Source: Candidatus Yanofskybacteria bacterium RIFCSPLOWO2_01_FULL_42_49
Lineage (GTDB): Bacteria > Patescibacteriota > Minisyncoccia > 2-02-FULL-40-12 > GWA2-44-9
DNA: 64,000 nt
NCBI GenBank assembly: GCA_001795615.1
Contig: MGKI01000014.1
Span: 5,380 to 69,379 of the forward strand
Direction of reading: 5' to 3'
In this document: positions 33,336-56,778 of the stretch, in pieces
Layout: each line of letters opens with the position of its first letter
Numbering within the stretch: the first letter of the stretch is position 1
Position numbers and translations under genes: made by a program
Notes under the pieces: generated by a model
The model's database searches: none
Seen by the model: only the letters and a program-made list of their open reading frames with translations
What the model was told of the DNA's origin: nothing

Positions 33336-33929
33336 TTAGAAATTCTTCTCTATTTGGCCGCAAAGCATGTGAATAACGGCCAGATGAACTTCCTGGACCA
33401 AGGCTGTATTTTCGTTCGGCACAATAATTGCAACATCAACCATCTCAAGAAGGTGTTTTGTTTTGGCGCTAAAAAATCCTATATTCTTCGCCCCTTTTAC
33501 CATAGCCGCTTCAAAAGCGTTTCTGATATTCCATGAATGGTGATCGTTTTCAAGATCACCAACATCGCTAGTAGTAAACCCGATGGCAACATCTCCCTGA
33601 CAGGCTAATGCTTCAATTTGTCTTGCAAAAACAGAAGGGAATCCAAAATCATTGCTTTGAGCGGTTAAAATCGAAGAATCCGTAGTTAAAGCAATAGCCG
33701 GTATTGCTTTCCTTCTTTTTTCAAACATACACACCAACTCTGCGGCGAAATGCTGAGCTTCGGCCGCCGAACCGCCATTCCCAAAGATAAGAATTTTACC
33801 ACCCCTCTTTATTGCTTCTGACAAAATTTCTCCGGCTATCCAAAAATTTCTAGCTAAATTCCAATCATTTGACATCTTAACATACAGTTCTGATCTTGCT
33901 TGCATGTTTTCAGCAAACAAATGTCCCAT
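33336..33929 (-). CDS. gmhA: phosphoheptose isomerase (sedoheptulose-7-phosphate isomerase, SIS domain)
   Basis: KILIFGNGGSAAEAQHFAAEL...TDSS...GFTTSD pattern typical of GmhA. Confidence 0.85.
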   Translation of the reverse strand: MGHLFAENMQARSELYVKMSNDWNLARNFWIAGEILSEAIKRGGKILIFGNGGSAAEAQHFAAELVCMFEKRRKAIPAIALTTDSSILTAQSNDFGFPSVFARQIEALACQGDVAIGFTTSDVGDLENDHHSWNIRNAFEAAMVKGAKNIGFFSAKTKHLLEMVDVAIIVPNENTALVQEVHLAVIHMLCGQIEKNF

Positions 33930-33996
33930 GATTTTCCTTTGTCAATTTGTCAATCTGCTAAATCTCATATACCATATAAATACTAAAAAGCAATCC

Positions 33997-34521
33997 ATGG
34001 AGAAATATTTAATTCTTGACAGAGATGGGGTTCTGATCAAAGACAAAGGATATGTCCACAAGATAAAAGATCTAGAATTATTGCCGGGCGTTGTTGAGGG
34101 TCTACAGAAGTTCAGAGATGCTGGATATAAATTTATTGTGATTTCAAACCAAGCCGGCATCGCAAGAGGACTTTACACGAGAAGGGACGCTGAAAGATTT
34201 AACAACAAACTAAAGGCGATATTGGCTTCCGACGGTATTGTCTTGGAAAAATTTTATTATTGTGAACACCACCCGGACATTAACGGCCGATGTAATTGCA
34301 GAAAACCGGCCACAGGATTAGTCACTAAAGCGGTTGAAGAATTCGAGATTAACTTAAGCGACGCCTGTTTTATCGGTGACAAGGACTGCGATATTGAGTT
34401 GGGTAAAAACTGCGGAGGCATTACTGTTCTGATAGACAGCGGCCAATATCCGAATTCGGTTCAACCTGATTTTAAAGCAAAGAACCTTGAACACGCGTTT
34501 GAGCTATTAAAAAACCGCTAA
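33997..34521 (+). CDS. gmhB: D,D-heptose 1,7-bisphosphate phosphatase (HAD-IIIA)
   Basis: LILDRDGVL, ISNQAGIARG, zinc site YCEHHP...CNCRKP, FIGDKDCD; start at the internal ATG 33997. Confidence 0.8.
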   Translation: MEKYLILDRDGVLIKDKGYVHKIKDLELLPGVVEGLQKFRDAGYKFIVISNQAGIARGLYTRRDAERFNNKLKAILASDGIVLEKFYYCEHHPDINGRCNCRKPATGLVTKAVEEFEINLSDACFIGDKDCDIELGKNCGGITVLIDSGQYPNSVQPDFKAKNLEHAFELLKNR

Positions 34522-39754: not shown

Positions 39755-40745
39755 GATGATTATTACACGAACACCATTCAGAATATCGTTTTTTGGAGGA
39801 GGAACCGATTATCCGGTTTGGTACAAAAAAAATGGCGGAGCAGTTTTATCAACCACCATTAACCATTATGGTTACATCACCTGCCGTTTTTCGCCGCCAT
39901 TTTTTAAACACAAATACAGGGTATCCTATTCGAAAATAGAGGAAGTGAGCCACCACAATCAAATTGACCATCCTTCCGTAAGAGAATCGCTAAAATTTTT
40001 AAACTTCAACAAAAATTTGAGCATAACTTATGATACCGACCTACCGGCCAGATCCGGCCTGGGTTCCAGTTCATCCTTCACGGTTGGGTTACTCAACGCT
40101 CTTTACGGATTAAGGGGCGAATCCAAAACTAAAGAACAGCTGGCCATGGACGCAATTCATGTAGAACAAAATTTGATCGGCGAAAATGTGGGTTCACAAG
40201 ACCAAACAGCTGCCGCATTCGGCGGACTCAATAAGATAGAGTTCGGCGGCGCTAACGAGTTAACAGTCATCCCGATTATCTTGGAACAAAAAAGGTCAAA
40301 AAATTTACAGGACCATTTGCTTATGTTCTTTACGGGATATGCTCGCACGGCATCGGAAATTGCCGCCGAGCAGATAAGACTCACACCCAAAAAAGACACC
40401 GAGCTTCACGCTATGAGGCAAATGGTAGATGAGGCTGTAAATATCCTCCATAGAAAAAAGGAGAATCTCGATGATTTTGGTAAGCTTCTTCACCAAAGCT
40501 GGCAATTAAAAAGAAGCTTGAGTTCTAAAATTTCAAATCCAGCCATAGACGAAATATATGCATTAGGGATAAAAGCCGGGGCTATCGGAGGAAAGTTGTT
40601 GGGTGCCGGTGGAGGCGGATTTATGTTATTTTTTGCCCCGCCAGAAAGACATAAAAAAATAATAGAAAAACTAAATAACTTTTTATGTGTCCCGGTCAAT
40701 ATGGAGTACACAGGAAGCCAAAGAATATACCACTCGGACTTCTAA
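39744..40745 (+). CDS. GHMP kinase, D-glycero-alpha-D-manno-heptose 7-phosphate kinase (HddA)-like
   Basis: N-terminal RTPFRISFFGGGTDYP and GHMP motif PARSGLGSSSSF. Confidence 0.7.
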   Translation: MYSKMIITRTPFRISFFGGGTDYPVWYKKNGGAVLSTTINHYGYITCRFSPPFFKHKYRVSYSKIEEVSHHNQIDHPSVRESLKFLNFNKNLSITYDTDLPARSGLGSSSSFTVGLLNALYGLRGESKTKEQLAMDAIHVEQNLIGENVGSQDQTAAAFGGLNKIEFGGANELTVIPIILEQKRSKNLQDHLLMFFTGYARTASEIAAEQIRLTPKKDTELHAMRQMVDEAVNILHRKKENLDDFGKLLHQSWQLKRSLSSKISNPAIDEIYALGIKAGAIGGKLLGAGGGGFMLFFAPPERHKKIIEKLNNFLCVPVNMEYTGSQRIYHSDF

Positions 40746-40819
40746 TCTACTTCCGCCTTCTGGACAACTCTCGGTTTTTATAGTATTTTATCTAAAAAGT
40801 TTTTTAACAAAGGGTATTA

Positions 40820-42715
40820 ATGCTCATTGACGGCTTGATAACCCCAAAAGGTCTTGCGGAGAGTTTTTCTAAAGAAACTTCGCTGGAGATGTTCAGGCGA
40901 ATGTGCCTGATCAGATATTTTGAGTTGAATGTTAAGGGCGCCTACGATTCCAAACGAATGCCAAAGTCGCCTATTTATCTTTCTGTTGGGCAAGAAGCAA
41001 TTTCGTCTGCCTTGTCGGTAGTTTTCAAGAAAGAGCAACCTGCCTTATTCGGACAACACCGAGGCCATGATATTTACTTAGCATTCGGCGGCGACCCGGC
41101 TAAACTAATAGATGAGCTGTTTGGTTGGCCGACTGGCTGTGCCAAAGGAATGGGGGGTTCGGCATCTATACATTGTCCGGAAATTAAAATGGTCGGTCAC
41201 GATGGTCTGATGGGGACGCAAGTCGCTGACAGCGTAGGTTCATCTCTTGTAGACAAAGAAATGACTATTGCTTTTATGGGCGACGCTAGCGCCGAAGAGG
41301 GATTCGTTTTGGGTCCCCTGGGTTTTGCAATAACAAAAAATCTGCCGATTCTTTTCGTTGTTTGCGACAATAATTTGTCCATTTTGACCCAAAAGGGGGT
41401 CCGCCGAAACTGGACAATGAATGAACATGCTAATTTCGGAATGCCGTCCATAGACATTACAGATGATCCGTGGCTGATCATGCATCATGCAAAAAGATTA
41501 AGTACTTCGCTCCCCGCTTTGATGAATATCCATACCTGCCGAGAGTTGTGGCACGCCGGAACGGGCAAAGACGGAGAACCGGAGTGGAATCGTTTTGAAA
41601 TAGTAAAACAAGAGCTTAACAACATGGGTTTTGGAACTGAAGCCGAAATCATAGAGAAAATCACAAAAAAACTTATTGATGAAATGTGGGGCATCAAGCT
41701 AAAAGAAGCGCCGCCTAATGAATTGTCTGCAAGAAAAAAGTTCACCATTATCGATCCAAATTACAAATACGAACGCAATCCTGTTTTGATTGACAAGAAG
41801 CCAAAGGTAAAAGAAATCATACAAGAAGTTACAAGAGATATTTTGAAAAACCAAGGCGGCAGAGCAATGGGCCAATGCCTAACTGCTGTCGGTTGGGTCG
41901 GCGGAACTGTTCCCAATATGACCGAGAAAGAAGGACTGATAGAACTTTCAATGGACGATACCGGGGGTTCTGGTATTGCTGTCGGTTGTTCAAGAAAAGT
42001 ACCGACCATCTACATAGTGCGCTATCAAGGGTTTCAGTGGTTCAATGCCGCCTTTATTGCCAACCTCGCCGCAAAATCAAAAGAAATGTGGGGAGTGCCG
42101 AGACGTTTATTCGTCCGATCCATTGCCATGGAGGGAGGCATCGGTCCAGTCGCCTCAAACAGCCATCATGGGATATTCACAAGGATACCTGGAATAGTAG
42201 CTGCCGCACCGATGACACCGGGAGAATATCTTCAAATCGCTGATTATTTTAACGGCCACGATGACCCTATGTATGTAAGCGAGCACAGAAAAAGTTTTGA
42301 CATTGATTACGAAATGCCCGACACCGTTAATCCCCATCCTCATATCACTTTATTCCCTATTTCTGCAGCAAGATTAAATACAATAAAAGCAGTGAAAACA
42401 TTGTCTGAAGAAGGGGTAATTTGCAACATCATACATCTTTTGTGGCTTAAACCGTTCATTGTCGGCGAAAGAGTATTGGGTCCCTTAGAAAACTCGGAAT
42501 TCGGGGGAATCGTCCTTGATACTGATTACGAGAATGGAGTTTCAAAATGCATCGCTCATGACCTAATGATGAAAACTGATAAAAAGGTAGCGGTACTCGG
42601 CCTTGAAGAAAGGACCGCCGGATTCGCGCCATACTTGGACAATCTCCCGCCTTCGCCAGAACAGATAGTTAGCTTCGTAAAAAACATAGTAAACAAATCT
42701 CCACGCTCATCATGA
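40820..42715 (+). CDS. TPP-dependent dehydrogenase E1 component, fused alpha+beta subunits (pyruvate/acetoin dehydrogenase E1-like)
   Basis: The N-terminal half has E1-alpha TPP-binding motifs (GQEA, GDASAEEG...NN). The C-terminal half has a transketolase-like pyrimidine-binding and C-terminal domain. Confidence 0.7.
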   Translation: MLIDGLITPKGLAESFSKETSLEMFRRMCLIRYFELNVKGAYDSKRMPKSPIYLSVGQEAISSALSVVFKKEQPALFGQHRGHDIYLAFGGDPAKLIDELFGWPTGCAKGMGGSASIHCPEIKMVGHDGLMGTQVADSVGSSLVDKEMTIAFMGDASAEEGFVLGPLGFAITKNLPILFVVCDNNLSILTQKGVRRNWTMNEHANFGMPSIDITDDPWLIMHHAKRLSTSLPALMNIHTCRELWHAGTGKDGEPEWNRFEIVKQELNNMGFGTEAEIIEKITKKLIDEMWGIKLKEAPPNELSARKKFTIIDPNYKYERNPVLIDKKPKVKEIIQEVTRDILKNQGGRAMGQCLTAVGWVGGTVPNMTEKEGLIELSMDDTGGSGIAVGCSRKVPTIYIVRYQGFQWFNAAFIANLAAKSKEMWGVPRRLFVRSIAMEGGIGPVASNSHHGIFTRIPGIVAAAPMTPGEYLQIADYFNGHDDPMYVSEHRKSFDIDYEMPDTVNPHPHITLFPISAARLNTIKAVKTLSEEGVICNIIHLLWLKPFIVGERVLGPLENSEFGGIVLDTDYENGVSKCIAHDLMMKTDKKVAVLGLEERTAGFAPYLDNLPPSPEQIVSFVKNIVNKSPRSS

Positions 42716-42728
42716 GCGTGGGAATAAG

Positions 42729-42753
42729 TAACCCCGCATTTAGCGGGGTTTTA
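42729..42753 (+). terminator. intrinsic terminator
   Basis: aaccccgc-attta-gcggggtt followed by TTTT. Confidence 0.55.
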
Positions 42754-42769
42754 AACAATAAATAAAGCG

Positions 42770-44128
42770 CTAGTCATCAGTAATGTTAGAATCTTTATAG
42801 AGTTCAAAAGAACTTAGTCCGGCTTCTTTAACTCTCCTATATATTTCGTTATGGTTTCGGATTATTTCCTCTTCACTCATTCCCCTCCCCCATGGCGTCA
42901 CGGGTGCGTATTTAAAAGAAAGTTGCTTTTTGTTTTCCTGATTCCCTCTCCGCCTATGCATTGTATTTTCCCAATCATAACTGACGCTTGCAATACCAAA
43001 TTTTTCCGGATTGTTAAACATTTCTGTACCTGGACGCACAGTGAAAAGTCCCAAGTAAACCAAATCCGGTTGAGTTTCCCGTATAAAGCTCCATGTCTGT
43101 TCGACAATATCATCCGGTTCGCCCGGAAGTCCGATGATCAGATACATCCGAGCCTCAATGTCGTTTGCCTTGAGCATGGCAATTGTTTCGCGGGCCTTTT
43201 GAACGCTTACCTGCTTATTGATAATATCCAGACAACGCTGGGCCACGCTCTCTACTCCCATCCCCAGAGCAACACATCCTGACTGCCGAGCCAAAGACGC
43301 AATCTCCGGCGTCACGCCATCAACGCGGCATTGTCCTCGCCAAAGAATATTAGTCCGTCCTATGGCCTCAAGATGCCGCATAGCAGCTTTTGGGTTTAAA
43401 GGAAAGACGATTTCATCGGTTAAGGATAAGCCCTGGATACCATAATCTTTCTTAAGATATTCAATTTCTGCTTCAACATATTCCGGCTTACGAAAACGAA
43501 TTCCTGGCGCCTCGCGTCTCGCATACTCAATTGCGCAAAATGAACAACGATAAGGACATCCCCGGCTAAACATGGCCGTAGTGCCCCATAGATTCTCCAG
43601 CCCTGATTTATTGCGCAAGGTCAGCACGTTTTTTCGTGCCGTAGCGCTTTTAGGGAGAAAGTGTCTCCTGTCGCAGGAATAAACGTTGATGTCAACAATT
43701 CCATTCGGTCGGTAAATGCGCTTTAACTTACCGGCCTTAAGATCGCGCACAGCTTCAACAATAGTATCGTCCCCTTCACCAAAAATAACCGAATCAAAAA
43801 TCATCATGCACTCATCCGGGAAAAAATTGGCATGAGGGCCTCCTGCAATATGCAGTGCGTCGGGATACTGTTGCCTGAGGATTTCGATAATTCCTCGTTG
43901 CTCGGCAAAATCAAGCGTATATACTGAGTGAAGAAAAACATTACATTCCGGAATATGGTATTTCGCAAAATACCGCTTAATGCCCCGCAGATCTATAAGC
44001 TTGAGATCAATCGCTGAACCAAACGCATCTTCAAGAATAGTGAGAATATGAAAATGCGTAAACGGATCGCCACGGAATGGATCAAACAGATAATCGCTAC
44101 TTGGGAATATGAAGCCGATTTTCAACAT
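42770..44128 (-). CDS. class B radical SAM enzyme (cobalamin-binding domain + radical SAM)
   Basis: B12-binding domain with IAGGPHANF; radical SAM CPYRCSFC (CxxxCxxC); start at the internal ATG (MLKIGFI). Confidence 0.8.
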   Translation of the reverse strand: MLKIGFIFPSSDYLFDPFRGDPFTHFHILTILEDAFGSAIDLKLIDLRGIKRYFAKYHIPECNVFLHSVYTLDFAEQRGIIEILRQQYPDALHIAGGPHANFFPDECMMIFDSVIFGEGDDTIVEAVRDLKAGKLKRIYRPNGIVDINVYSCDRRHFLPKSATARKNVLTLRNKSGLENLWGTTAMFSRGCPYRCSFCAIEYARREAPGIRFRKPEYVEAEIEYLKKDYGIQGLSLTDEIVFPLNPKAAMRHLEAIGRTNILWRGQCRVDGVTPEIASLARQSGCVALGMGVESVAQRCLDIINKQVSVQKARETIAMLKANDIEARMYLIIGLPGEPDDIVEQTWSFIRETQPDLVYLGLFTVRPGTEMFNNPEKFGIASVSYDWENTMHRRRGNQENKKQLSFKYAPVTPWGRGMSEEEIIRNHNEIYRRVKEAGLSSFELYKDSNITDD

Positions 44129-44271
44129 ATTACCTCTTTTTATTAGTGAGCTGCCAAAATTATACAGCACAAATCATATTTTAACAACCTTCCAGAGTTA
44201 CGAACAAGACACCACAAAAATAACAGTGTCAATATGGATAACGATTTTCTGCTATGTTATATTTTTAAATT

Positions 44272-44832
44272 ATGAAAGATACCAAACAGCAACAAAAAGC
44301 CGTCGTTATCACTGCCGAAGGATTTGAAGATGAAGAAGTTATTTACCCGGTCATCCGACTTAAGGAAGAGGGGTTCATGGTTGATATCGCCACTAAAGAC
44401 GCTAAGTCCGTATTGGGACGATTAAACTTCCCCCTTGAACTTATAGTCCGTTATTATGCTACTCTGGTTGATGCTAAGAAATTAAAACCTAATGATTATG
44501 ACCTCGTGCTGATTCCCGGTGGATTTGAAGCGCCTGATAGGATGAGACAGGTACCAGAAATTTTGGAATTTGTCAGGCAAATGCATAAACAAAAAAAAAT
44601 CGTTTCTGCGTTTTGCCACGGCCCTTGGGTACTTATCTCAGCCGGCATAGTTAAAGGCAAGAAGATTGCCGGATACATCGGTATTAAAGACGATATAAAC
44701 AATGCCGGGGCAATTTATACCGACCAACCAGCAGTAATTGACGGAAACATTATCACCGCCAGACACCCAAGAGATATGGGAGATTTAATGAAAGCGATTT
44801 TTAGTAAGTTTAAAGTAGAAAATAGAAAATAG
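44272..44832 (+). CDS. DJ-1/PfpI family protein
   Basis: Nucleophile-elbow AFCHGPW and overall class-I glutamine amidotransferase-like fold. Confidence 0.75.
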   Translation: MKDTKQQQKAVVITAEGFEDEEVIYPVIRLKEEGFMVDIATKDAKSVLGRLNFPLELIVRYYATLVDAKKLKPNDYDLVLIPGGFEAPDRMRQVPEILEFVRQMHKQKKIVSAFCHGPWVLISAGIVKGKKIAGYIGIKDDINNAGAIYTDQPAVIDGNIITARHPRDMGDLMKAIFSKFKVENRK

Positions 44833-44862: not shown

Positions 44863-45591
44863 ATGATCAAAAAAATTCGACAATCTGAATTAGATAAAGA
44901 CTACATAAAAATTAACAAATATCCTATAAGCCCCATCAGTGTCAATCTTAAAAATGTTGTGGTGACTAAACCGTGGGGTTATGAGTATTTAATGTTCAAA
45001 AACAATGAAACCGAGATATGGAATCTGTCTATAAAATACCAGCGTTCCACGTCAATGCACTGCCATCCGAATAAAAAAACTGCCCTTGTTGTTCTAAGCG
45101 GAAGAGCTCAATTTTCAACTCTCAATGAATCATGGGAGTTGATGCCCCACGATGTGATGATAATCGATAAAGGGACATTTCATTCCACCCAAAGCTTGTC
45201 AAAAGAGGGATTAGTGCTATTAGAGTTCGAAACCCCTCCGATGAAACATGACCTACTCAGACTAGAAGATAAATATGGCCGGGCGAGAAAAGGCTATGAA
45301 GAAGAAGTAGACAGAATGATGAAAACTACTGAATATCCCCGTTTTTTAGGAGTCAAAAACAGTAAAGTAAAAAATATCTGCAATAATAAAGTCTGCATAT
45401 TAGAAATTAAAAACAAAAACAACCTTTCAAACTACCCCCAAAAAACCAGAACACTTGCTGTGGTTTTAAGTGGCATGGTTAAGTCAAAAAACGAAGAACC
45501 AATATATGAACCGCCCCACGTCCTTGCTCTGGAAGAACTTCAAGAAGCCGGCCATTTTTTCCATAATGTTTCTTTAATGCTCATCAGGTGA
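44863..45591 (+). CDS. cupin domain protein (type II mannose-6-phosphate isomerase-like cupin)
   Basis: KPWGYEYL...MHCHPNKKTALVVLSGRA cupin motifs. Confidence 0.5.
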   Translation: MIKKIRQSELDKDYIKINKYPISPISVNLKNVVVTKPWGYEYLMFKNNETEIWNLSIKYQRSTSMHCHPNKKTALVVLSGRAQFSTLNESWELMPHDVMIIDKGTFHSTQSLSKEGLVLLEFETPPMKHDLLRLEDKYGRARKGYEEEVDRMMKTTEYPRFLGVKNSKVKNICNNKVCILEIKNKNNLSNYPQKTRTLAVVLSGMVKSKNEEPIYEPPHVLALEELQEAGHFFHNVSLMLIR

Positions 45592-46244
45592 TCCCGAAAG
45601 CAAAAGATTTAATTATATTTGATTTTGACGGCGTATTGGCCGATTCTTTTGACTACTTCTATGCTCTGAACAGAGACGGAATGAAACATGTCGGTCTTTC
45701 TTTTACAAAAGAAGACTATCGAAATCTATTTATCGATAATGTCCATCGGGGATTTAAAGATTTTATAAACAACAACCAAAAATATCTTGCTTATTCAGAG
45801 TTTAGAAAAGCAAATTATGATAGGCGTTACTACGACAAGGAAAGGGGCGTTAAACTATTTCCAAAAGTACCTATATTTCTCAAAAAAATAAGCAAAGCAT
45901 ATCTTCTGGCCGTTGCCTCTTCGGGCCAACAAAAAAACATAAGAAATCTATTAAATAAGGCCGGGGTTGAGAGTTTATTTGATCTAATTTTAGCCGATTC
46001 AAACTATTCTAAAAAGGAGACGATAAAAAAAATATTAAACAAGCATCGAGTCAACTCCGAACAAACTTTCTTTGTCACTGACACTGTTGGTGATGTAAAA
46101 GCCGCAAAAAAATGCGGCCTTAAAACCATAGCCATCACTTGGGGATTCCATGATAAAAAAACTCTCATGACAGCAGGTCCGGACTATATTGTTGCTGACT
46201 TTAAAGCGTTAGGATCAATACTAAAATCTAGCCGACCTAATTAA
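45588..46244 (+). CDS. HAD-IA family hydrolase (phosphatase)
   Basis: IFDFDGVLADS (motif I), VASSG (II), FVTDTVGDVKAAKKCG (III/IV); GTG start overlapping the cupin stop. Confidence 0.75.
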   Translation: MIPKAKDLIIFDFDGVLADSFDYFYALNRDGMKHVGLSFTKEDYRNLFIDNVHRGFKDFINNNQKYLAYSEFRKANYDRRYYDKERGVKLFPKVPIFLKKISKAYLLAVASSGQQKNIRNLLNKAGVESLFDLILADSNYSKKETIKKILNKHRVNSEQTFFVTDTVGDVKAAKKCGLKTIAITWGFHDKKTLMTAGPDYIVADFKALGSILKSSRPN

Positions 46245-46366: not shown

Positions 46367-47563
46367 ATGATTTATAGATACCCTCTAGCTGACGATACTG
46401 TAACCAAGGATGATCGAGAGGCCTTGGCTCAGTGGATCTTGGAAGATCCGTCTCCACGTTTTACAATGGGACCGCTGGTAAGGCAATATGAGGAAAAATG
46501 GTCTAACTGGCTGGGAAGACGGTATTCTGTATCTTGTAACTCGGGTTCATCGGCAAACTTGCTGATGTATTATGCCCTGCTTCGTTCAAGCCGGTTGAAA
46601 AACAAAAAAGTCATCGTACCCAGCGCCGCTTGGGTTACCACCATAGCACCTGCTATTCAGTTGGGGTTTGAACCGATAATGTGCGATGCCGACTATGATA
46701 CATGGGCGCTTAATCGAAGACATTTGAGACAACTGCTTGAAGAACACCATCCCGGAACCGTAACATTGGTTCAGGTTCTCGGAGTTCCCCATAATATGGG
46801 TGACCTGATGGAGTTAAAAAATAAATACGGATTTTTTCTTCTTGAAGACTCTTGCGCCGCAATGGGTTCATCATACCATGGAAAAAAGGTCGGAACATTT
46901 GGCGACATGGCTTCAATGTCAACCTACTATGGACACCAGTTTTCTACTATAGAAGGCGGTTTTGTTTCAACAGACGATAAAGACTTATCCGACATGCTCG
47001 TGATGCTAAGAAGCCACGGCTGGGTGGCTCATCTTGACCCGGAAACCAGAGCTGGAATGCTCAAGAAATATGAAATAGAAGATATCGGAACTAATTTCGT
47101 TTTCTGTGAACCGGGGTTTAACTTCCGACTGACCGATCTTCAGGCATTTATCGGTATGCGGCAATTAAACAGAATGAACTGGCTGGTTGAAAGAAGATCT
47201 GAAAATCACCGCCTTTACAAGCAACTTCTTGGTAGTCGGTTTATAACACAGGCCTACGACGACAAGACAACTGTCTGCAGTATCCATTTTTGCGCGTTAG
47301 CGGCTAATTACGAAGAAAGAAATTATATTATTAAGATGCTTGAAAACGAGAGCATAGAAACGCGGCCCTTTACTTCGGGCAACCAGGGACTACAGCCGTA
47401 TTGGTTCAGAGAATATGGAAAATTTTCCTCTTCTATGGCCAATAAACTTTATCATTGCGGGTTTTTTCTGCCCAATCATCCGTATCTTAAAAAAGAAGAT
47501 ATCGAGTTTATCTGTTCGGTAGCGACCAAAGCGGTTCAAGACTTCCGAAAAAGAGGAAAATAA
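46367..47563 (+). CDS. DegT/DnrJ/EryC1 family PLP/PMP enzyme with His replacing the Schiff-base Lys (ColD/E1-like sugar 3-dehydratase)
   Basis: Family fold throughout. The active-site block STYYGHQFSTIEGG aligns to SFHAIKNITCAEGG with His at the Lys position. That substitution is the hallmark of GDP-4-keto-6-deoxymannose 3-dehydratase (ColD) and CDP-sugar E1 dehydratases. Confidence 0.6.
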   Translation: MIYRYPLADDTVTKDDREALAQWILEDPSPRFTMGPLVRQYEEKWSNWLGRRYSVSCNSGSSANLLMYYALLRSSRLKNKKVIVPSAAWVTTIAPAIQLGFEPIMCDADYDTWALNRRHLRQLLEEHHPGTVTLVQVLGVPHNMGDLMELKNKYGFFLLEDSCAAMGSSYHGKKVGTFGDMASMSTYYGHQFSTIEGGFVSTDDKDLSDMLVMLRSHGWVAHLDPETRAGMLKKYEIEDIGTNFVFCEPGFNFRLTDLQAFIGMRQLNRMNWLVERRSENHRLYKQLLGSRFITQAYDDKTTVCSIHFCALAANYEERNYIIKMLENESIETRPFTSGNQGLQPYWFREYGKFSSSMANKLYHCGFFLPNHPYLKKEDIEFICSVATKAVQDFRKRGK

Positions 47564-48511
47564 ATGGCAAAAATCCTTGTGACTGGTGCGGCAGGATATA
47601 TCGGTTCAATTCTTGTTCCCATGCTTTTACGAGAAAGCCACGAAGTTGTTGTTTTGGATAACTTCATGTATAGACAAAACTCTCTGCTCGATTGTTGCAA
47701 TGACAAGAGATTGGTCATCATACGAGGTGACACCAGAGACGAGAAGCTGGTCGATAAAATCTTTAGAGACTACCCCCTTGATTATGTGTTTCCCCTCGCG
47801 GCCATAGTAGGAGCCCCGGCTTGCGACAAAGATCCGATAAGTTCCACGACAACAAATGTTGGCGGGGTAATGGAGGTTTCGCAAAGATGGATCGGGGCGC
47901 GAACCCCGCGAATAATTTTCCCAAACACCAATAGTGGCTACGGCATAGGCCAAGAAGGCGTTTATTGCACAGAAGATAGTCCGCTTAATCCGATATCTCT
48001 TTATGGCCGCCAGAAGGTTGAGGCGGAAAAATCTGTCTTGGAAATCGGCAACACGATCGTGTTGCGGTTAGCCACCGTATTCGGCGTTAGTCCAAGAATG
48101 CGTCTTGACCTTCTAGTCAACGACTTCGTCCATAGAGCCATGAACGATCATTATGTTGTCCTCTTTGAGCCGCACTTCAAAAGAAATTATATTCATGTCC
48201 GAGATGTGGCCAGGGCATTTATTCATTGCATGGAAAACTTTGACACGATGAAAAACCAGGTCTACAATCTTGGTTTAAGTGACGCAAATCTAAGCAAGTG
48301 GGAACTTTGCGAAGAGATACAAAAACAGGTGCCAAATTTCTACTTTATCGAAGCAAAAATAGGCGAAGATCCGGATAAACGCAACTACATTGTCAGCAAC
48401 GCAAAAATAGAAGCAACCGGATTTCGTCCCCGTTTTTCTCTACAAGACGGAATTGCTGAGTTGATAAGAGGCTACCGAATCATAAGGAAAAGTGAATTTT
48501 CTAACCTATAG
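47564..48511 (+). CDS. NAD-dependent epimerase/dehydratase family protein (extended SDR)
   Basis: ILVTGAAGYIGS Rossmann motif; SLYGRQK catalytic YxxxK. Confidence 0.75.
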   Translation: MAKILVTGAAGYIGSILVPMLLRESHEVVVLDNFMYRQNSLLDCCNDKRLVIIRGDTRDEKLVDKIFRDYPLDYVFPLAAIVGAPACDKDPISSTTTNVGGVMEVSQRWIGARTPRIIFPNTNSGYGIGQEGVYCTEDSPLNPISLYGRQKVEAEKSVLEIGNTIVLRLATVFGVSPRMRLDLLVNDFVHRAMNDHYVVLFEPHFKRNYIHVRDVARAFIHCMENFDTMKNQVYNLGLSDANLSKWELCEEIQKQVPNFYFIEAKIGEDPDKRNYIVSNAKIEATGFRPRFSLQDGIAELIRGYRIIRKSEFSNL

Positions 48512-49036: not shown

Positions 49037-49106
49037 AGCCCCTATAATATACAGAAAATCATCTGACTTGACAAATACATAATTTAATAATACACATAAC
49101 AATAAA

Positions 49107-49715
49107 GTGGCGGTAAATTTTAAAAATAAGGAGAGCGTCTTGGAGGTGAAACCTTGGGAGAAAGTGGGCGAACCCAATACCATAATTCAAATACATGACA
49201 AGCGGATAGTTATGCGGAAATTTAAAAATCCACGCACCAATAAGGTGGAGGAGTTTTATCAGTTCGGAACCACGCCCTATGCTTGTATCATTCTGCCTTT
49301 AAACACTGACAACGAGGTTCTAGCTGTAAAACAATTTCGTCACGGAGCAGATAAAATTTTACTCGAACTTCCGGGTGGAAACCCCAAAACGCCGGAACAA
49401 ACACCCGAAGAAGTGGCGGAAGAAGAGCTGTTTGAAGAATCGTTGGGCCACAGAGCAGAAAAGATTATAAAATTAAACAGTGAACCGCTGTGGTTTAATC
49501 CGGCAACTTTCATTACGCCATTCCACGCATTTCTTGCCCTTGGCTGCCGCCAAACAGAAGAAAGTTTTAAATTAGATCAAGGGGAATATCTAGAGTTAAC
49601 CAAAATCCCCCTGAAAAAATGGCTTGCTATGTGCACCAGCGGTAAAATCGTTGATGCAAAATCAATGGCCGTAACGTTTTTAGCCCTTGATAACATCGGC
49701 CTAAAAATTACATAG
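49107..49715 (+). CDS. Nudix hydrolase family protein with degenerate Nudix box
   Basis: The Nudix box GGNPKTPEQTPEEVAEEELFEESLG has the REuxEE arginine replaced by Glu. It is a paralog of the 54389 Nudix. The start may be TTG at 49140, after AAGGAG. Confidence 0.6.
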   Translation: MAVNFKNKESVLEVKPWEKVGEPNTIIQIHDKRIVMRKFKNPRTNKVEEFYQFGTTPYACIILPLNTDNEVLAVKQFRHGADKILLELPGGNPKTPEQTPEEVAEEELFEESLGHRAEKIIKLNSEPLWFNPATFITPFHAFLALGCRQTEESFKLDQGEYLELTKIPLKKWLAMCTSGKIVDAKSMAVTFLALDNIGLKIT

Positions 49716-53417: not shown

Positions 53418-54392
53418 ATGATTAAGAAAAAAGTGCTCATAACAGGCATCACAGGTTCATGCGGTAGCTATCTTGCTGACTATATTGTCAAATACCATCC
53501 CGAGTTTGAAATCCATGGTATCTCTCGCTGGCACAGTACTAGCACGCCTAGAAACTTATCTCAATCATTCAAGAACGTTAAAATGCATGAATGCGATCTG
53601 AACGATTTCAGTTCTACTCTTCGCGTGTTGAAAACGGCGCAACCTGATTTTATTTTTCATGTTGCCTCTCATGCCAATGTGCGTGCATCTTTCATTAATC
53701 CTATTGCTGTATTACAAAATAATATTATGTGTACGGCTAATTTATTCGAAGCACTGCGGCTAGCCGAGATTGATCCGCGAATACAGCTATGCAGTACATC
53801 GGAAGTTTACGGACAGGTTGACCCCAAAAATGTCCCTATCCGTGAAGATTGCCCGATGAATCCGGTAAGTCCTTATGCCGTATCAAAAACAACCCAGGAC
53901 CTTTTAGGTAATGCGTACTTCAAGGCTTATGGGATGAAGATCGTTAGAACGAGAATGTTCACATATATGAATCCTCGAAGAGAAGACCTTTTCATGACAT
54001 CGTTTTCTATGCAAGTAGCTCGCATTGAGGCCGGGATTCAAAAAGAACTTCTTCACGGCAATTTGGACTCCGTAAGAACCGTCATTGATATCCGGGACGC
54101 GATGGAAGCCTATTGGATGTCCCTACAGAAATGCCGGCCAGGAGAAGCATATAACATCGGTGGTACAACCAGTATTACGGTAGGAGATTTTCTAGAAACT
54201 CTTAAGCAACATGCAACCTGTCCTATTCCTTCCCGTTTGGATCCTGAATTATTACGACCGACAGATGTAACCTTGCAAATACCGGACACAACTAAATTCA
54301 CTTCTGAAACTGGCTGGAAACCACAACATAGCCTTGAAGACAGTACAGATTTTCTGTTGAGATACTGTCGTGAAAGAGTAAATCCGTTATGA
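53418..54392 (+). CDS. GDP-mannose 4,6-dehydratase / GDP-6-deoxy-D-mannose reductase (Rmd)-family extended SDR
   Basis: VLITGITGSCGSYLADY (cf [17 protein letters not shown]), STSEVYG, SPYAVSK. Confidence 0.7.
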   Translation: MIKKKVLITGITGSCGSYLADYIVKYHPEFEIHGISRWHSTSTPRNLSQSFKNVKMHECDLNDFSSTLRVLKTAQPDFIFHVASHANVRASFINPIAVLQNNIMCTANLFEALRLAEIDPRIQLCSTSEVYGQVDPKNVPIREDCPMNPVSPYAVSKTTQDLLGNAYFKAYGMKIVRTRMFTYMNPRREDLFMTSFSMQVARIEAGIQKELLHGNLDSVRTVIDIRDAMEAYWMSLQKCRPGEAYNIGGTTSITVGDFLETLKQHATCPIPSRLDPELLRPTDVTLQIPDTTKFTSETGWKPQHSLEDSTDFLLRYCRERVNPL

Positions 54393-55025: not shown

Positions 55026-55835
55026 ATGAATCTCGAACTGAAAGGAAGGTTGGCTTTAGTTACCGGTTCAACCCGCGGACTAGGCAAAGCCATTGCTGAA
55101 GCATTAGCGGCAGAAGGCGCCGACATTATCATAAATGGACGATGGAGTAAAACCGTCGGCAACGTTGCATACGAAATTGAACATAAATTCGGTCATAACA
55201 TTCACGTTTATCAATGCGCATGTGACGCAACTGACCCCAAAAAAATAAAAGAATTTTTTAGCGGAAAAATGCTCCAGATAGGCCACTTGGATATTCTGGT
55301 GAACAATATCGGCAACTTAGAAAAATTCGGAAATTTTTTCGAACTTGAAGATGAGAACTGGTTAAGATGCTACGACCTAACCTGCATGAGCGCGGTCCGC
55401 TTCACCAGAGAAGCCATACCATATCTTGAAAGATCCGGACGCGGAAGAATAATCAATATCTCGAGTTTGTCGTCGCATCAGCCGGGTAACTTTTCTCCCC
55501 ATTACTCTGCGGCAAAAGCGGCTATGAATAACTTGACTAAGCATTTAGCCAATGTTTTGGGAGGTAAAAATATTCTGGTAAATGCGGTCTGTCCCAGCAC
55601 TCTCTCGAGCGGAGGATGGGCTCAAAACATCATAGACAGATCGAGAAGAGACGGAATTACAACTGAACAGGCCGAACAACTGATGCGCAATGAAGACAAT
55701 AAAAAATCTCCCCTTGGCCGAATAGGCATGGCGGAAGATGTCGCAAATTTAGTGGTATACCTGGCCTCTGATAAAGCAAATTTCCTAACCGGACATATTT
55801 TTGATATTGACGGCGGAATTACAAGAGGGGTATGA
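55026..55835 (+). CDS. classical short-chain dehydrogenase/reductase (SDR)
   Basis: LALVTGSTRGLGKAIA (TGxxxGxG), NNIG, YSAAK (YxxxK). Confidence 0.8.
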   Translation: MNLELKGRLALVTGSTRGLGKAIAEALAAEGADIIINGRWSKTVGNVAYEIEHKFGHNIHVYQCACDATDPKKIKEFFSGKMLQIGHLDILVNNIGNLEKFGNFFELEDENWLRCYDLTCMSAVRFTREAIPYLERSGRGRIINISSLSSHQPGNFSPHYSAAKAAMNNLTKHLANVLGGKNILVNAVCPSTLSSGGWAQNIIDRSRRDGITTEQAEQLMRNEDNKKSPLGRIGMAEDVANLVVYLASDKANFLTGHIFDIDGGITRGV

Positions 55836-55836
55836 G

Positions 55837-56778
55837 ATGAGTAAAACCAAGGTTCTCATCTGTGGCGCAAACGGATTTATCGGACGCAATTTATTTGAAC
55901 ACTTTAATTCTGACGACGGATACGAAACCTACGGGACTTACTTTAAGAATAAGCCGAATGTTTTTAGTCCCAGGATATTCCAAGCTGACCTACGGGATAA
56001 AGATGAGGCATTACGGGCAACTCAAGGCATGGACATTGTAATTAATGCCGCGGCTTTGACTGACGGAATGGGGGCTTTTGATCCAACGACATATATTCCT
56101 CAAAACAGAGTGATAAACAATAACTTAATTGAAGCCGCTCACATAAATAGAGTAAAACACTTTATCTTTCTTAGCTGTACGGTGATGTATCCCTCAAGCG
56201 AAAGACCCCTGAAAGAAGATGAATATGATCTGAACAATGTCCATCCAAAATATAAAGAAGGCGCTCAAATGAAACTAGAGGGAGAGTGTTTGTGTTTGTC
56301 GTATGCTAATCTAGGAATTACAAAATATACTGCCATCCGCCATACAAATATTTACGGCCCTTATGATAAGTTTGACTTAAAACGCGGACATGTTCTGCCG
56401 GCCACCATCACAAAAGTGATGGAAGCAAAAGATAAAATCACAGTTTGGGGTAATGAAAAAGAATCAAGAGATTTTCTTTACATTGATGACCTAGCTAAGT
56501 TTATTGAGAAGGCCATTGAAAATCAGAAAAATAATTTTGAACTATTCAATGTTGGATATGGAAAAACATGTTCCGTAAATAAATTAGTCCAGAAAATAAT
56601 TTTCTGCTCGGGGAAAAAACTGGATGTCGTCCATGACCTCGAAAAACCTACGGTTGAAACACATATGAACATTGACGTAAAGAAAGCAAATAATGTTCTT
56701 GGCTGGAAAGCCGAAATCGGATTATCTGAAGGACTCGTTATTACACTGGATTGGTATCATAACCACTACCCGCGCTAA
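55837..56778 (+). CDS. NAD-dependent epimerase/dehydratase family protein (GDP-sugar epimerase/reductase-like)
   Basis: VLICGANGFIGRNLFEHF; the extended-SDR fold; ATG at 55837 follows AGAGGGG. Confidence 0.7.
   Translation: MSKTKVLICGANGFIGRNLFEHFNSDDGYETYGTYFKNKPNVFSPRIFQADLRDKDEALRATQGMDIVINAAALTDGMGAFDPTTYIPQNRVINNNLIEAAHINRVKHFIFLSCTVMYPSSERPLKEDEYDLNNVHPKYKEGAQMKLEGECLCLSYANLGITKYTAIRHTNIYGPYDKFDLKRGHVLPATITKVMEAKDKITVWGNEKESRDFLYIDDLAKFIEKAIENQKNNFELFNVGYGKTCSVNKLVQKIIFCSGKKLDVVHDLEKPTVETHMNIDVKKANNVLGWKAEIGLSEGLVITLDWYHNHYPR

What the first reader, a model, noticed from the sequence alone, without database searches (positions are those of the whole stretch)
40820..42715. Fused E1 alpha-beta TPP-dependent enzyme embedded in the sugar locus
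A single 631-aa polypeptide carries both E1-alpha (TPP-binding) and E1-beta (transketolase-like pyrimidine and C-terminal) domains. No E2 or E3 partner genes are nearby. It is flanked by the HddA-like kinase and a radical SAM gene. This suggests an acyloin-type two-carbon (hydroxyethyl/acetyl) transfer onto a keto-sugar nucleotide, analogous to YerE-type branched-sugar formation but using a different enzyme family.
Basis: partly seen in the sequence, partly recalled or inferred. Interest (0 to 1): 0.55.

Follow-up and report, generated by a model that had tools for sequence, protein, structure and literature searches.

The report
Fused E1-like thiamine enzyme, heptose locus
This gene encodes a real single-chain fusion of the two subunits of a pyruvate-dehydrogenase-type thiamine enzyme that has no E2/E3 partners, has an altered active site and sits in a widely conserved heptose-sugar cassette, so it most likely adds a small carbon unit to a keto-heptose nucleotide rather than serving energy metabolism.

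Summary
ORF 40820-42715 (+) encodes 631 aa: an E1-alpha ThDP-binding half (aa ~1-296), a 33-aa linker, and an E1-beta half (aa ~330-631). No E2 or lipoyl protein is encoded in the 64-kb window or in 1.3 Mb of related loci.

The gene is a rare fusion, seen only in CPR bacteria. It derives from a widespread, uncharacterised split E1a/E1b pair found in SAR11, Nitrospira, Acidobacteriota, Omnitrophota, Planctomycetes, CPR and DPANN archaea. That pair lies in a conserved module, DJ-1/PfpI - bicupin - E1a - E1b. The module travels with a heptose kinase, a nucleotidyltransferase, a HAD phosphatase, a DegT aminotransferase and an SDR that matches C. jejuni Cj1427 (GDP-heptose C4-dehydrogenase) at 370 bits.

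The clade has Asp where all compared E1s have the cofactor-activating Glu. It usually has Ala at the His128-beta position.

Best reading (about 0.45): an E2-independent carboligase adds a 2-oxoacid-derived C2 unit to an NDP-4-keto-heptose. Split E1 pairs (AviB1/B2, Plm8/9, EvdU5/S3) are already credited with this reaction, so it is a new variant of a known kind. The donor, the acceptor and the roles of the cupin and DJ-1 proteins remain unproven.

The parts
40820..42715 (+). Fused E1 alpha-beta ThDP-dependent enzyme, 631 aa (the finding)
40820..41707 (+). E1-alpha (PP, diphosphate-binding) half, aa 1-296. The ThDP/Mg motif GDASAEEG...DNN is at aa 154-184 (41279-41371). H245 lines up with the His of the conserved E1-alpha R-x3-H-x5-D motif (His271-alpha), judged by motif inspection.
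   Evidence: PF00676; alignment to human E1-alpha; conservation in 61 alpha ORFs; split alpha subunits end at query position ~296
41708..41806 (+). Linker, aa 297-329, that replaces the stop/start overlap of the split genes. It has lower model confidence and is poorly conserved.
41807..42712 (+). E1-beta half (PYR domain plus C-terminal domain), aa 330-631. D380 (41957-41959) stands in place of the cofactor-activating Glu59-beta. A445 (42152-42154) stands in place of His128-beta. F405 corresponds to Phe85-beta.
   Evidence: residue roles from PMC2663715
39744..40745 (+). GHMP sugar kinase of the heptose-kinase (HddA/WcbL) type. It is co-conserved with the E1 clade (39/48 loci, median 54% identity).
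42770..44170 (-). B12-binding radical SAM enzyme, convergent with the E1 gene. A hairpin at 42701-42721 lies between the two stops.
44272..44832 (+). DJ-1/PfpI family protein (TIGR01382, 151 bits, above its cutoff), part of the tight DJ-1 - cupin - E1 module
44863..45591 (+). Bicupin, 242 aa, with three invariant histidines (H66, H68, H107). In other genomes it sits a median 11 bp from the E1 genes and is fused to E1-alpha in Omnitrophota and Acidobacteriota.
45588..46244 (+). HAD-IA phosphatase; 19 of the 20 loci that carry it have it within 3 kb of the E1 genes
46367..47563 (+). DegT/DnrJ/EryC1-type sugar aminotransferase (or dehydratase)
47564..48511 (+). SDR closely matching PDB 6vo6/6vo8 (E 1.2e-109), which I take to be C. 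jejuni Cj1427, the GDP-heptose C4-dehydrogenase. It is the predicted source of the NDP-4-keto-heptose.
   Evidence: enzyme function from PMC10680097
48539..49183 (-). Cytidylyltransferase-like nucleotidyltransferase; best match is RfaE domain II (heptose-1-P adenylyltransferase)
49107..49715 (+). NUDIX hydrolase, NudE-like (ADP-compound hydrolase)
33336..33929 (-). GmhA-like sedoheptulose-7-P isomerase (below the equivalog cutoff)
33904..34521 (+). GmhB-like heptose-1,7-bisphosphate phosphatase (HAD-IIIA; below the equivalog cutoff)
53418..54392 (+). SDR similar to GDP-heptose 4,6-dehydratase (7us5) and Rmd (2pk3)
55801..56778 (+). SDR of the GDP-fucose-synthase / 3,5-epimerase-4-reductase type; co-conserved in 40/48 loci

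Best explanation
The protein is a stand-alone, E2/E3-independent ThDP enzyme of the E1 (alpha2beta2) lineage, here fused into one chain. It works inside a pathway that builds and decorates a nucleotide-activated heptose for a cell-surface glycan. Inferred sequence of steps: sedoheptulose-7-P is converted to an NDP-D-glycero-D-manno-heptose by the GmhA-like isomerase, the GHMP kinase, the GmhB-like or HAD phosphatase, and the nucleotidyltransferase. The Cj1427-like SDR oxidises C4 to give an NDP-4-keto-heptose. The E1 enzyme decarboxylates a 2-oxoacid, most simply pyruvate, to the hydroxyethyl-ThDP enamine and adds it to that carbonyl. The product is a C-acetyl (later hydroxyethyl or 1-aminoethyl) branched higher-carbon sugar. 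The DegT aminotransferase, further SDRs, B12-radical-SAM methylases and a PhyH hydroxylase then elaborate it. What is shown: the fold and domain order, an intact ThDP/Mg motif, the absence of E2, the conserved gene company, and the identity of the partner SDR and kinase families. What is inferred: the donor, the acceptor carbon, the order of steps, and the roles of the bicupin and the DJ-1 protein, which are clearly coupled to E1.
For: Architecture and cofactor site. No E2, E3 or lipoyl gene in the window ORFs scanned and no E2 by tblastn in the window or 76 related loci. By contrast, a conventional fused E1ab on a Sulfitobacter plasmid is followed directly by an E2 gene. The context is conserved across phyla: 66 genome loci, with co-occurrence and distance statistics. 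The SAR11 operon DJ1-cupin-E1a-E1b-GHMP-DegT-SDR has overlapping stops and starts. The partner SDR matches 6vo6/6vo8 (Cj1427) at 370 bits; Cj1427 makes GDP-D-glycero-4-keto-lyxo-heptose (PMC10680097). The kinase matches heptose kinases. The nucleotidyltransferases are HddC-like or RfaE-II-like, and GmhA/GmhB-like genes are present. Precedent: PDH-E1-like alpha/beta pairs install pyruvate-derived C2 branches on NDP-4-keto sugars. Ala replaces His128-beta, the residue needed for lipoyl acetylation, which fits independence from E2. An aldo-keto reductase occurs in 7 loci; in paulomycin biosynthesis the aldo-keto reductase Pau7 reduces the acetyl branch.
Against: There is no biochemical data for any member of this clade. 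No sequence comparison with AviB1/B2, Plm8/9 or EvdU5/S3 was possible, so the precedent is an analogy and orthology is not shown. His128-beta also contacts pyruvate in canonical E1 and is missing here, and the activating Glu is Asp in 60/60 clade members. Both changes leave pyruvate use and normal kinetics uncertain. The genes most tightly linked to E1 are a bicupin (median 11 bp away, sometimes fused to E1-alpha) and a DJ-1/PfpI protein. In Nitrospira these two are replaced by an SDR plus a class-I amino-acid aminotransferase. None of these has a role in the YerE/AviB scheme, and they hint at a special 2-oxoacid donor or different chemistry. DegT could consume the same 4-keto group. The GHMP kinase, HAD phosphatase, nucleotidyltransferase and PMI-like cupin also fit a scheme in which the carbon skeleton is built at the sugar-phosphate level.
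Confidence: 0.45

Rival explanations
1. Skeleton-building role at the sugar-phosphate level (like DXS, transketolase or LmbR). The E1 enzyme condenses a ThDP-bound C2 unit with an aldose phosphate to make a higher-carbon or 1-deoxy ketose phosphate. That product is then isomerised (PMI-like bicupin), phosphorylated at the anomeric position (GHMP kinase), dephosphorylated (HAD) and nucleotide-activated. This is the same logic as the GDP-heptose route (GmhA/HddA/GmhB/HddC) and the GDP-octose route (LmbR/N/P/K/O).
For: The cupin, HAD-IA and GHMP kinase genes lie closest to E1 and on the same strand. All 10 cupin homologues tested give weak hits to the mannose-6-P isomerase cupin family PF01050. 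A nucleotidyltransferase is present in about half of the loci. Every conserved gene except DJ-1 maps onto a step of the lincosamide octose pathway (PMC4351081). The fold resembles single-chain transketolases.
Against: The window and the SAR11 loci already carry GmhA-like and GmhB-like genes, so the kinase and transferase are explained without E1. A pyruvate-derived 1-deoxy-ketose cannot be isomerised to an aldose. The cupin has three invariant histidines and looks as much like dioxygenases or 2-oxoacid-binding bicupins as like PMI. The partner most consistently co-conserved is a nucleotide-sugar C4-dehydrogenase, which points to chemistry at the NDP-sugar level.
Confidence: 0.2
2. A decarboxylase or carboligase that uses a special 2-oxoacid rather than pyruvate. 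The donor could be a sugar-derived 2-keto(-3-deoxy) acid, glyoxylate, hydroxypyruvate or 2-oxoglutarate. It would be supplied by the bicupin plus DJ-1 pair, or in Nitrospira by the SDR plus class-I aminotransferase pair. The result would be a different branch (C1, hydroxyacetyl, C4) or a 2-deoxy-aldose.
For: The pyruvate-contacting His128-beta is lost and the activating Glu is altered across the clade. DJ-1+cupin and SDR+amino-acid aminotransferase are mutually exclusive, and each sits directly upstream of E1a. Structural neighbours of the bicupin include enzymes that bind 2-oxoacids or oxalate: BacB, AerE, KdgF and OxdC. Some genomes fuse the cupin to E1a. DegT releases 2-oxoglutarate and the Cj1427-type enzyme consumes it.
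Against: All of this is indirect. The Foldseek hits for the cupin are generic, with E-values of 4e-9 to 4e-7 across unrelated cupin functions. No synthase for a 2-keto-3-deoxy sugar acid is conserved in the loci. PfpI-type proteins have no established biosynthetic role.
Confidence: 0.2
3. A conventional E1 of a 2-oxoacid (pyruvate, acetoin or branched-chain) dehydrogenase complex that merely happens to lie in a sugar locus.
For: The best family hits by name are PDH E1-alpha and E1-beta. Some public annotations call relatives acetoin or pyruvate dehydrogenase subunits. Other fused E1ab proteins do exist next to an E2 gene.
Against: No E2 was found in the window or in 1.3 Mb of homologous loci. 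NCBIfam scores are far below the equivalog cutoffs (97.6 against 393.85). His128-beta, required for lipoyl acetylation and described as conserved in all known E1s, is Ala. The gene context is a conserved nucleotide-sugar cassette in more than 10 phyla.
Confidence: 0.03

Closest known systems
AviB1/AviB2 (avilamycin), Pau11/Pau12 = Plm8/Plm9 (paulomycin), EvdU5/EvdS3 (everninomicin): PDH-E1-like alpha/beta pairs for C2 branching of NDP-4-keto sugars
   Same: They have E1-alpha and E1-beta type domains, are encoded in a nucleotide-sugar pathway without E2/E3, and have an NDP-4-keto sugar available as electrophile. They share the proposed ThDP carboligation using a 2-oxoacid donor.
   Different: Those are two separate subunits in actinomycete antibiotic clusters that act on deoxyhexoses or pentoses. 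Here the protein is a single fused chain in a CPR cell-surface glycan locus with a heptose pathway, a coupled bicupin and DJ-1 protein, and Asp/Ala at two catalytic positions. Sequence relatedness to these proteins could not be tested.
YerE (yersiniose A biosynthesis)
   Same: It is proposed to perform the same chemistry: pyruvate-derived hydroxyethyl-ThDP adds to a 4-keto sugar nucleotide.
   Different: YerE is an acetolactate-synthase-type flavoprotein from a different ThDP superfamily branch. The window protein has no such architecture and gives only a 17-bit sub-threshold PF02775 hit.
G. stearothermophilus / human PDH E1 (alpha2beta2)
   Same: It has the same three-domain fold, the same ThDP/Mg motif, the Phe that stacks on the pyrimidine ring, and a His at the His271-alpha position of the E1-alpha motif.
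   Different: There is no E2/E3 partner. The chain is fused. The alpha half is shorter (~296 aa against 360-370). Glu59-beta is Asp, His128-beta is Ala, and the Tyr of the YRxH motif is His.
Other fused E1 alpha-beta proteins (NCBI product name 'dehydrogenase E1 component subunit alpha/beta'; 650-860 aa)
   Same: They are single-chain alpha-beta fusions of the E1 type.
   Different: They share only about 21-25% identity with the window protein. They keep Glu59 and the QHS histidine (29/29). At least one is followed by an E2 gene. They represent an independent fusion event.
C. jejuni capsular heptose modification (Cj1427 C4-dehydrogenase, Cj1430 cupin epimerase, Cj1428 reductase)
   Same: The entry chemistry is the same: an NDP-heptose is oxidised at C4 by a close Cj1427 homologue. 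A cupin and a GDP-fucose-synthase-like SDR are also present.
   Different: C. jejuni has no ThDP enzyme, no DJ-1 protein and no B12-radical SAM enzymes in this pathway. The cupin here is a His-rich bicupin, not an RmlC-type epimerase.

Membership tests
Heterotetramer-type 2-oxoacid dehydrogenase E1 (alpha + beta; PF00676 + PF02779 + PF02780) | N-terminal PP domain with the GDG-X(25-30)-NN ThDP/Mg2+ motif, scoring above the Pfam threshold | tested here: met
   PF00676 scores 56.7 bits against a cutoff of 22. The GDASAEEG...DNN motif is conserved, with G154, D155 and N184 in 61/61 alpha ORFs.
Heterotetramer-type 2-oxoacid dehydrogenase E1 (alpha + beta; PF00676 + PF02779 + PF02780) | PYR and C-terminal domains of E1-beta | tested here: met
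   The single sequence is sub-threshold (12.6-14.7 bits). Family profiles hit E1-beta chains at 2e-15 and 1.8e-18 over nearly their full length. The AF2 fold matches three-domain ThDP enzymes.
Heterotetramer-type 2-oxoacid dehydrogenase E1 (alpha + beta; PF00676 + PF02779 + PF02780) | Conserved cofactor-activating glutamate (Glu59-beta in G. stearothermophilus) | tested here: not met
   Asp (D380) stands at this position in the window protein and in 60/60 clade E1-beta ORFs. Glu is kept in 29/29 other fused E1ab proteins and in the 4 paralogous E1-beta ORFs.
Heterotetramer-type 2-oxoacid dehydrogenase E1 (alpha + beta; PF00676 + PF02779 + PF02780) | His128-beta, which contacts pyruvate and acts as acid/base for reductive acylation of the lipoyl group ('conserved in all known E1s') | tested here: not met
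   Ala (A445) is found here and in 55/64 ORFs of the beta cluster. The outgroup has QHS. The residue's role is from PMC2663715.
Heterotetramer-type 2-oxoacid dehydrogenase E1 (alpha + beta; PF00676 + PF02779 + PF02780) | Works with E2 (lipoyl acyltransferase) and E3, which are usually encoded nearby | tested here: not met
   No such Pfam family appears in the 50 window ORFs scanned. tblastn with an E2 gave no hit in the window or the 76 loci. The rest of the genome was not available.
Sugar C-branching E1-like enzymes (AviB1/B2, Plm8/9, EvdU5/S3) | E1 alpha/beta-type protein(s) encoded within an NDP-sugar pathway that also provides an NDP-4-keto sugar | tested here: met
   A Cj1427-like C4-dehydrogenase is adjacent in the cassette and co-conserved in 42/48 loci. 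A 4,6-dehydratase-like SDR is also present.
Sugar C-branching E1-like enzymes (AviB1/B2, Plm8/9, EvdU5/S3) | Sequence orthology to the genetically characterised members | not tested
Sugar C-branching E1-like enzymes (AviB1/B2, Plm8/9, EvdU5/S3) | Pyruvate-dependent formation of a C-acetyl branched sugar nucleotide | not testable with these tools
   This needs an enzyme assay.
YerE / acetolactate-synthase-type ThDP flavoenzymes | TPP_enzyme_N / M / C domain order with an FAD-binding middle domain | tested here: not met
   Only a 17-bit sub-threshold PF02775 hit lies inside the E1-alpha half.
Transketolase / DXS | Transketolase_N or DXP_synthase_N PP domain and the conserved Glu | tested here: not met
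   There is no PF00456 or PF13292 hit. The similarity is at fold level only, at 12-16% identity. The true transketolase-like gene of the window is 49771-51606.

The most novel reading that the evidence does not exclude
The Asp-for-Glu, His128-less E1 clade, together with its obligate bicupin and DJ-1/PfpI partners, carries out a ThDP reaction on an NDP-4-keto-heptose that has not been described. This could involve an unusual 2-oxoacid donor, or a branch-plus-rearrangement giving a nonose-type sugar. The product would be a signature cell-surface sugar shared by SAR11, Nitrospira, Acidobacteriota, CPR bacteria and DPANN archaea.
Probability: 0.3. Interest if true: 0.75.

Novelty: new variant of a known kind. 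Interest (0 to 1): 0.55.

Why it matters
If the reading is right, the cassette defines a route to C-branched or chain-extended heptose-derived sugars. It occurs in some of the most abundant and least cultivable microbes: SAR11, comammox-type Nitrospira lineages, CPR and DPANN. Their surface glycans are essentially unknown. The clade would also be a natural ThDP enzyme group with Asp in place of the near-universal activating glutamate, which is a useful test case for cofactor activation. The cupin-E1a fusion, the alpha-beta fusion and the Nitrospira gene swap identify exactly which proteins to co-express. The close Cj1427 homologue provides a practical way to make the candidate substrate. This turns an annotation puzzle into a testable experiment.

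Tried and rejected
- Conventional PDH, acetoin or BCKDH E1: rejected. There is no E2, scores are far below equivalog cutoffs, and His128-beta is lost.
- YerE-type and transketolase/DXS membership: rejected on domain content.
- The 660-aa neighbour (37772-39754) as a divergent B12-radical SAM like the 660-aa proteins of L007/L008: rejected. BLASTP shows no similarity, and the protein looks like a polytopic membrane protein.
- The cupin as an RmlC/Cj1430-type epimerase or FdtA ketoisomerase: not supported. No PF00908 hit was reported, and PF05523 matched only 2/10 members at E 0.02.
- Structure search of the cupin: it only showed a bicupin with generic neighbours.
- The window transketolase-like gene as part of the cassette: rejected, since it has 0/48 co-occurrence.
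- Rfam scan of the window: nothing found.
- Promoter and terminator scans: counts are no different from shuffled sequence.
- Plasmid collection: only conventional E1 proteins at <=25% identity.
- Full-text search for a paper describing this gene combination: none found.
- Treede 2005 and the Cj1427 structure paper are not in the library, and a search for the PDB code was uninformative. The identification of 6vo6/6vo8 as Cj1427 therefore rests on my own knowledge and on the entry's distinctive name.
Full report
**Observation**

ORF 40820-42715 (+) is the longest ORF at this position (631 aa, ATG). An AAGGG motif lies 7 nt upstream of the start.

The N-terminal half is a clear E1-alpha ThDP-binding domain.
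- PF00676 covers aa 27-224 at E 2.4e-15.
- TIGR03182 scores 97.6 bits, far below its equivalog cutoff of 393.85.
- Human PDH E1-alpha matches at E 6.5e-12.

The C-terminal half is only marginal on the single sequence. PF02779 and PF02780 score E 0.03-0.1, below their thresholds.

A profile built from 26 full-length homologues (alignment A1) settles the matter. It hits E1-alpha at 3.8e-25 and G. stearothermophilus E1-beta at 2e-15 across chain residues 4-276. A beta-only profile gives 1.8e-18.

The AlphaFold2 model is confident (pLDDT 86, pTM 0.88). It superposes on full-length single-chain transketolases and SucA-type E1o proteins (TM 0.63-0.73). This is what a PP-PYR-C three-domain ThDP enzyme fused into one chain should look like. 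The fusion is real.

**Absence of E2/E3**

I scanned 50 of the 52 window ORFs of at least 150 aa against Pfam. The other two overlap longer genes. None carries a lipoyl, 2-oxoacid_dh or pyridine-nucleotide-disulfide oxidoreductase domain.

A genuine E2 gave no tblastn hit at E <= 1 in the window or in 76 related loci, 1.3 Mb in total. That E2 came from a Sulfitobacter plasmid, where it directly follows a conventional fused E1ab gene.

**What the window is**

An identical copy of the neighbouring cupin is annotated from a Candidatus Yanofskybacteria MAG from Rifle groundwater. The exact E1 protein occurs on 134-141 kb groundwater contigs.

From about 19.9 kb to the end of the window lies one large glycan locus. 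It contains:
- a UDP-glucose-dehydrogenase-like gene, an initiating sugar transferase, a GT2, a flippase, a GDSL protein, a carbamoyltransferase and a PMT_2 protein;
- a GDP-mannose dehydratase, many SDRs and an ABC exporter;
- four B12-radical SAM genes, a PhyH dioxygenase, Nudix hydrolases and a transketolase-like gene.

**The family and its architectures**

The word-index search found 44 full-length fused homologues (48-93% identity). It also found a second group of about 540-aa proteins that match only the alpha half.

A scan of one genome per species returned 66 loci. They come from:
- CPR lineages: Yanofskybacteria (closest at 74%), Saccharibacteria, Daviesbacteria, Sungiibacteriota and Liptonbacteria;
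- DPANN archaea;
- Omnitrophota, Nitrospira, Terriglobia, Elusimicrobia, Planctomycetia and Verrucomicrobiota;
- many Pelagibacteraceae, including a complete Pelagibacter genome.

In 54 loci the alpha subunit (~280-320 aa) and the beta subunit (~300-330 aa) are separate genes, usually overlapping. Only 7 loci (5 unique, all CPR or unassigned metagenome) have the alpha-beta fusion. Another 7 (6 unique; Omnitrophota, Acidobacteriota and unassigned bacterial MAGs) have a cupin-E1a fusion followed by E1b.

Alpha subunits end at query residue ~296 and beta subunits start at ~330. Residues 297-329 are therefore the linker.

In the exhaustive representative search, 383 proteins score E <= 1e-30. Only two or three representatives are fused members of this clade. 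A separate set of 650-710 aa fused E1ab proteins scores much lower.

**Conserved company**

I clustered all ORFs of 67 loci all-against-all. The number of loci carrying each family is:

| Family | Loci |
|---|---|
| E1b | 60 |
| E1a | 57 |
| extended SDRs | 51 |
| DJ-1/PfpI | 46 |
| cupin (plus 6 fused) | 43 |
| GHMP kinase | 39 |
| B12-radical SAM | 36 |
| DegT | 32 |
| NTP_transferase | 24 |
| HAD-IA | 22 |
| adh_short | 20 |
| PhyH | 18 |
| Nudix | 13 |
| GmhA-like SIS | 10 |
| cytidylyltransferase-like | 9 |

Distances to the E1 genes show a tight module.
- The cupin lies a median 11 bp away (38/41 within 1 kb).
- DJ-1 lies a median 693 bp away.
- HAD-IA lies a median 1.3 kb away.
- The GHMP kinase lies a median 2.4 kb away.
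- The cupin, DJ-1 and HAD-IA genes are always on the E1 strand; the GHMP kinase is on it in 31 of 38 loci.

The first ~250 residues of the 542-aa Omnitrophota protein align with the free-standing cupin at 38% identity. This is a Rosetta-stone link between the cupin and E1a.

In eight Nitrospira/Nitrospiraceae loci, DJ-1 and cupin are both absent. An adh_short SDR plus a class-I aminotransferase (GntC/AspAT-like) sit directly upstream of E1a instead. The two pairs are mutually exclusive.

**Heptose theme**

- The GHMP kinase's best structural relatives are heptose kinases: 3k85, WcbL (4usk/4ut4) and 4n3o, at E 1e-35 to 1e-39.
- The window also has a GmhA-like isomerase, a GmhB-like phosphatase, an RfaE-domain-II-like nucleotidyltransferase and two NudE-like Nudix genes. 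All score below their equivalog cutoffs.
- In other taxa the transferase is HddC/ManC-like. SAR11 has an HddC-GmhB fusion.
- The SDR at 47564-48511 is the SDR most consistently conserved with the E1 clade (42/48 loci, median 55% identity). It matches PDB 6vo6/6vo8 at E 1.2e-109.
- To my knowledge, supported by the entry's characteristic name, that PDB entry is C. jejuni Cj1427. [quoted passage not shown]
- Other SDRs resemble GDP-heptose 4,6-dehydratase or Rmd, and GDP-fucose synthase.

The cassette therefore makes an NDP-heptose and oxidises it at C4.

**Active site**

The alpha-half motifs are intact, including GDA-x-x-EEG...DNN. H245 lines up with His271-alpha of the E1-alpha motif (motif inspection).

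The beta half shows two departures from canonical E1.

1. *The activating glutamate.* HMMER and MAFFT alignments both place D380 (ELSMDD) opposite Glu59-beta of the G. stearothermophilus enzyme (PLAE). Glu59-beta activates the cofactor (PMC2663715).
   - Asp is present in 60/60 clade beta ORFs.
   - Glu is kept in the 4 paralogous conventional E1b ORFs found in some of the same loci.
   - Glu is also kept in 29/29 other fused E1ab proteins.
2. *His128-beta.* This residue contacts pyruvate and is needed for lipoyl acetylation. It is described as conserved in all known E1s. It is Ala (A445) here and in 55/64 ORFs of the beta cluster. The outgroup has QHS.

Phe85-beta, which stacks on the pyrimidine ring, is kept as F405.

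I could not measure distances in the model. The Asp assignment therefore rests on alignments and on matching secondary-structure positions.

**Interpretation**

A stand-alone E1-type enzyme next to an enzyme that produces an NDP-4-keto sugar has a clear precedent. PDH-E1-like alpha/beta pairs are held to add a pyruvate-derived acetyl branch to C4 of NDP-4-keto sugars in three antibiotic pathways. Knockout or combinatorial-biosynthesis evidence is cited for the first two:
- avilamycin (AviB1/B2);
- paulomycin (Pau11/12 = Plm8/9);
- everninomicin (EvdU5/EvdS3).

YerE does the same reaction with an acetolactate-synthase scaffold.

I therefore favour a carboligase acting on the NDP-4-keto-heptose, with confidence of about 0.45. 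In the minimal SAR11 operon one oxidation could serve both E1 and DegT. E1 would convert the C4 ketone into a tertiary alcohol bearing an acetyl group, and DegT could then aminate the new ketone. This sequence is inference.

The analogy leaves three things unexplained:
- the obligate bicupin and DJ-1 partners;
- their replacement by an SDR plus an amino-acid aminotransferase in Nitrospira;
- the loss of the pyruvate-contacting histidine.

These observations keep two rivals alive.
- One is a skeleton-building role at the sugar-phosphate level, on the model of the heptose and lincosamide-octose pathways.
- The other is use of a special 2-oxoacid donor supplied by the accessory pair.

The bicupin model (pLDDT 85) has only generic neighbours: oxalate decarboxylase, quercetinase, a bacterial cysteine dioxygenase, BacB, AerE, PMI, CapF and KdgF. 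It does not decide between these options.

**Novelty and verdict**

E1-type sugar-branching enzymes and fused E1ab proteins are each already known. The fusion itself is therefore a new variant of a known kind.

The more interesting result lies outside the original coordinates. The gene belongs to a phylogenetically very broad, uncharacterised clade with a non-canonical active site. That clade is locked into a DJ-1 - bicupin - E1 module inside a Cj1427-type heptose pathway. This makes a concrete biochemical experiment possible.

Noticed in passing
window 49771-51606 (-) and 51748-53277 (-): A second ThDP enzyme lies in the same locus: a 611-aa single-chain transketolase-like protein (NF004559, 318 bits, below its cutoff of 488). 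It sits next to another B12-binding radical SAM gene. No homologue occurs near the E1 clade in 48 other loci, so it is not part of the cassette. It may be the housekeeping transketolase or a second C2-transfer step.
   Followed up: partly
window 42770-44170 (-), 51748-53277 (-), 58605-60482 (+), 60562-62691 (+); PhyH at 57707-58498 (+): One glycan locus holds four B12-binding radical SAM genes and a PhyH-type Fe/2OG dioxygenase. B12-rSAM genes accompany the E1 clade in 36/67 loci. This suggests heavy C-methylation or other radical tailoring of the sugar.
   Followed up: partly
L009 10001-11629 (Omnitrophota); also L027, L029, L047, L048, L051: In these genomes the bicupin is fused to the N-terminus of E1-alpha (527-572 aa) and is followed by a separate E1-beta. 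This is a Rosetta-stone link between the cupin and the ThDP enzyme.
   Followed up: yes
L031, L032, L036-L038, L042, L043, L046 (Nitrospira/Nitrospiraceae): The DJ-1 and cupin genes are both missing. An adh_short SDR plus a class-I aminotransferase (GntC/AspAT-like, 297 bits) sit directly upstream of E1a instead. The two pairs are mutually exclusive, which looks like a non-orthologous replacement.
   Followed up: partly
L009 2519-3487 and 4689-5744: A second, conventional-looking E1a/E1b pair lies in the same sugar locus. It has Glu at the Glu59-beta position, is split by a DegT gene and sits next to a GHMP kinase. Four loci carry such a paralogous E1b. It may be the true AviB-type branching enzyme, which would imply a different job for the Asp clade.
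   Followed up: no
window 37772-39754 (+): A 660-aa ORF has no Pfam or NCBIfam hit, and its start overlaps the stop of the ABC exporter gene. It has many hydrophobic stretches and is unrelated to the 660-aa radical SAM proteins of L007/L008 (BLASTP E > 5). It is probably a polytopic membrane protein of the export or polymerisation machinery.
   Followed up: partly
window 48539-49183 (-), 49107-49715 (+), 54389-54943 (+): The nucleotidyltransferase best matches RfaE domain II (an adenylyltransferase), and both Nudix genes best match NudE (an ADP-compound hydrolase). The heptose may therefore be ADP-activated in this CPR genome. Most other carriers have HddC-like (GDP) transferases.
   Followed up: no
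window 40001-44000: GC content is 0.43-0.45 over the E1 and radical SAM genes, against 0.36-0.37 in the 2-kb bins on either side. The cassette's distribution across bacteria and DPANN archaea suggests a mosaic, laterally exchanged locus.
   Followed up: no
window 42701-42721: A 9-bp GC-rich hairpin (CCACGCTCATGATGAGCGTGG) overlaps the E1 stop codon and lies between the convergent E1 and radical SAM genes. It is a possible bidirectional terminator, but terminator-like sites in this region are not more frequent than in shuffled sequence.
   Followed up: no
L058, L067, L071 and other Pelagibacteraceae loci: An aldo-keto reductase (YdjG-like) accompanies the cassette in 7 loci. In paulomycin biosynthesis an aldo-keto reductase (Pau7) reduces the C4-acetyl branch to hydroxyethyl.
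   Followed up: no
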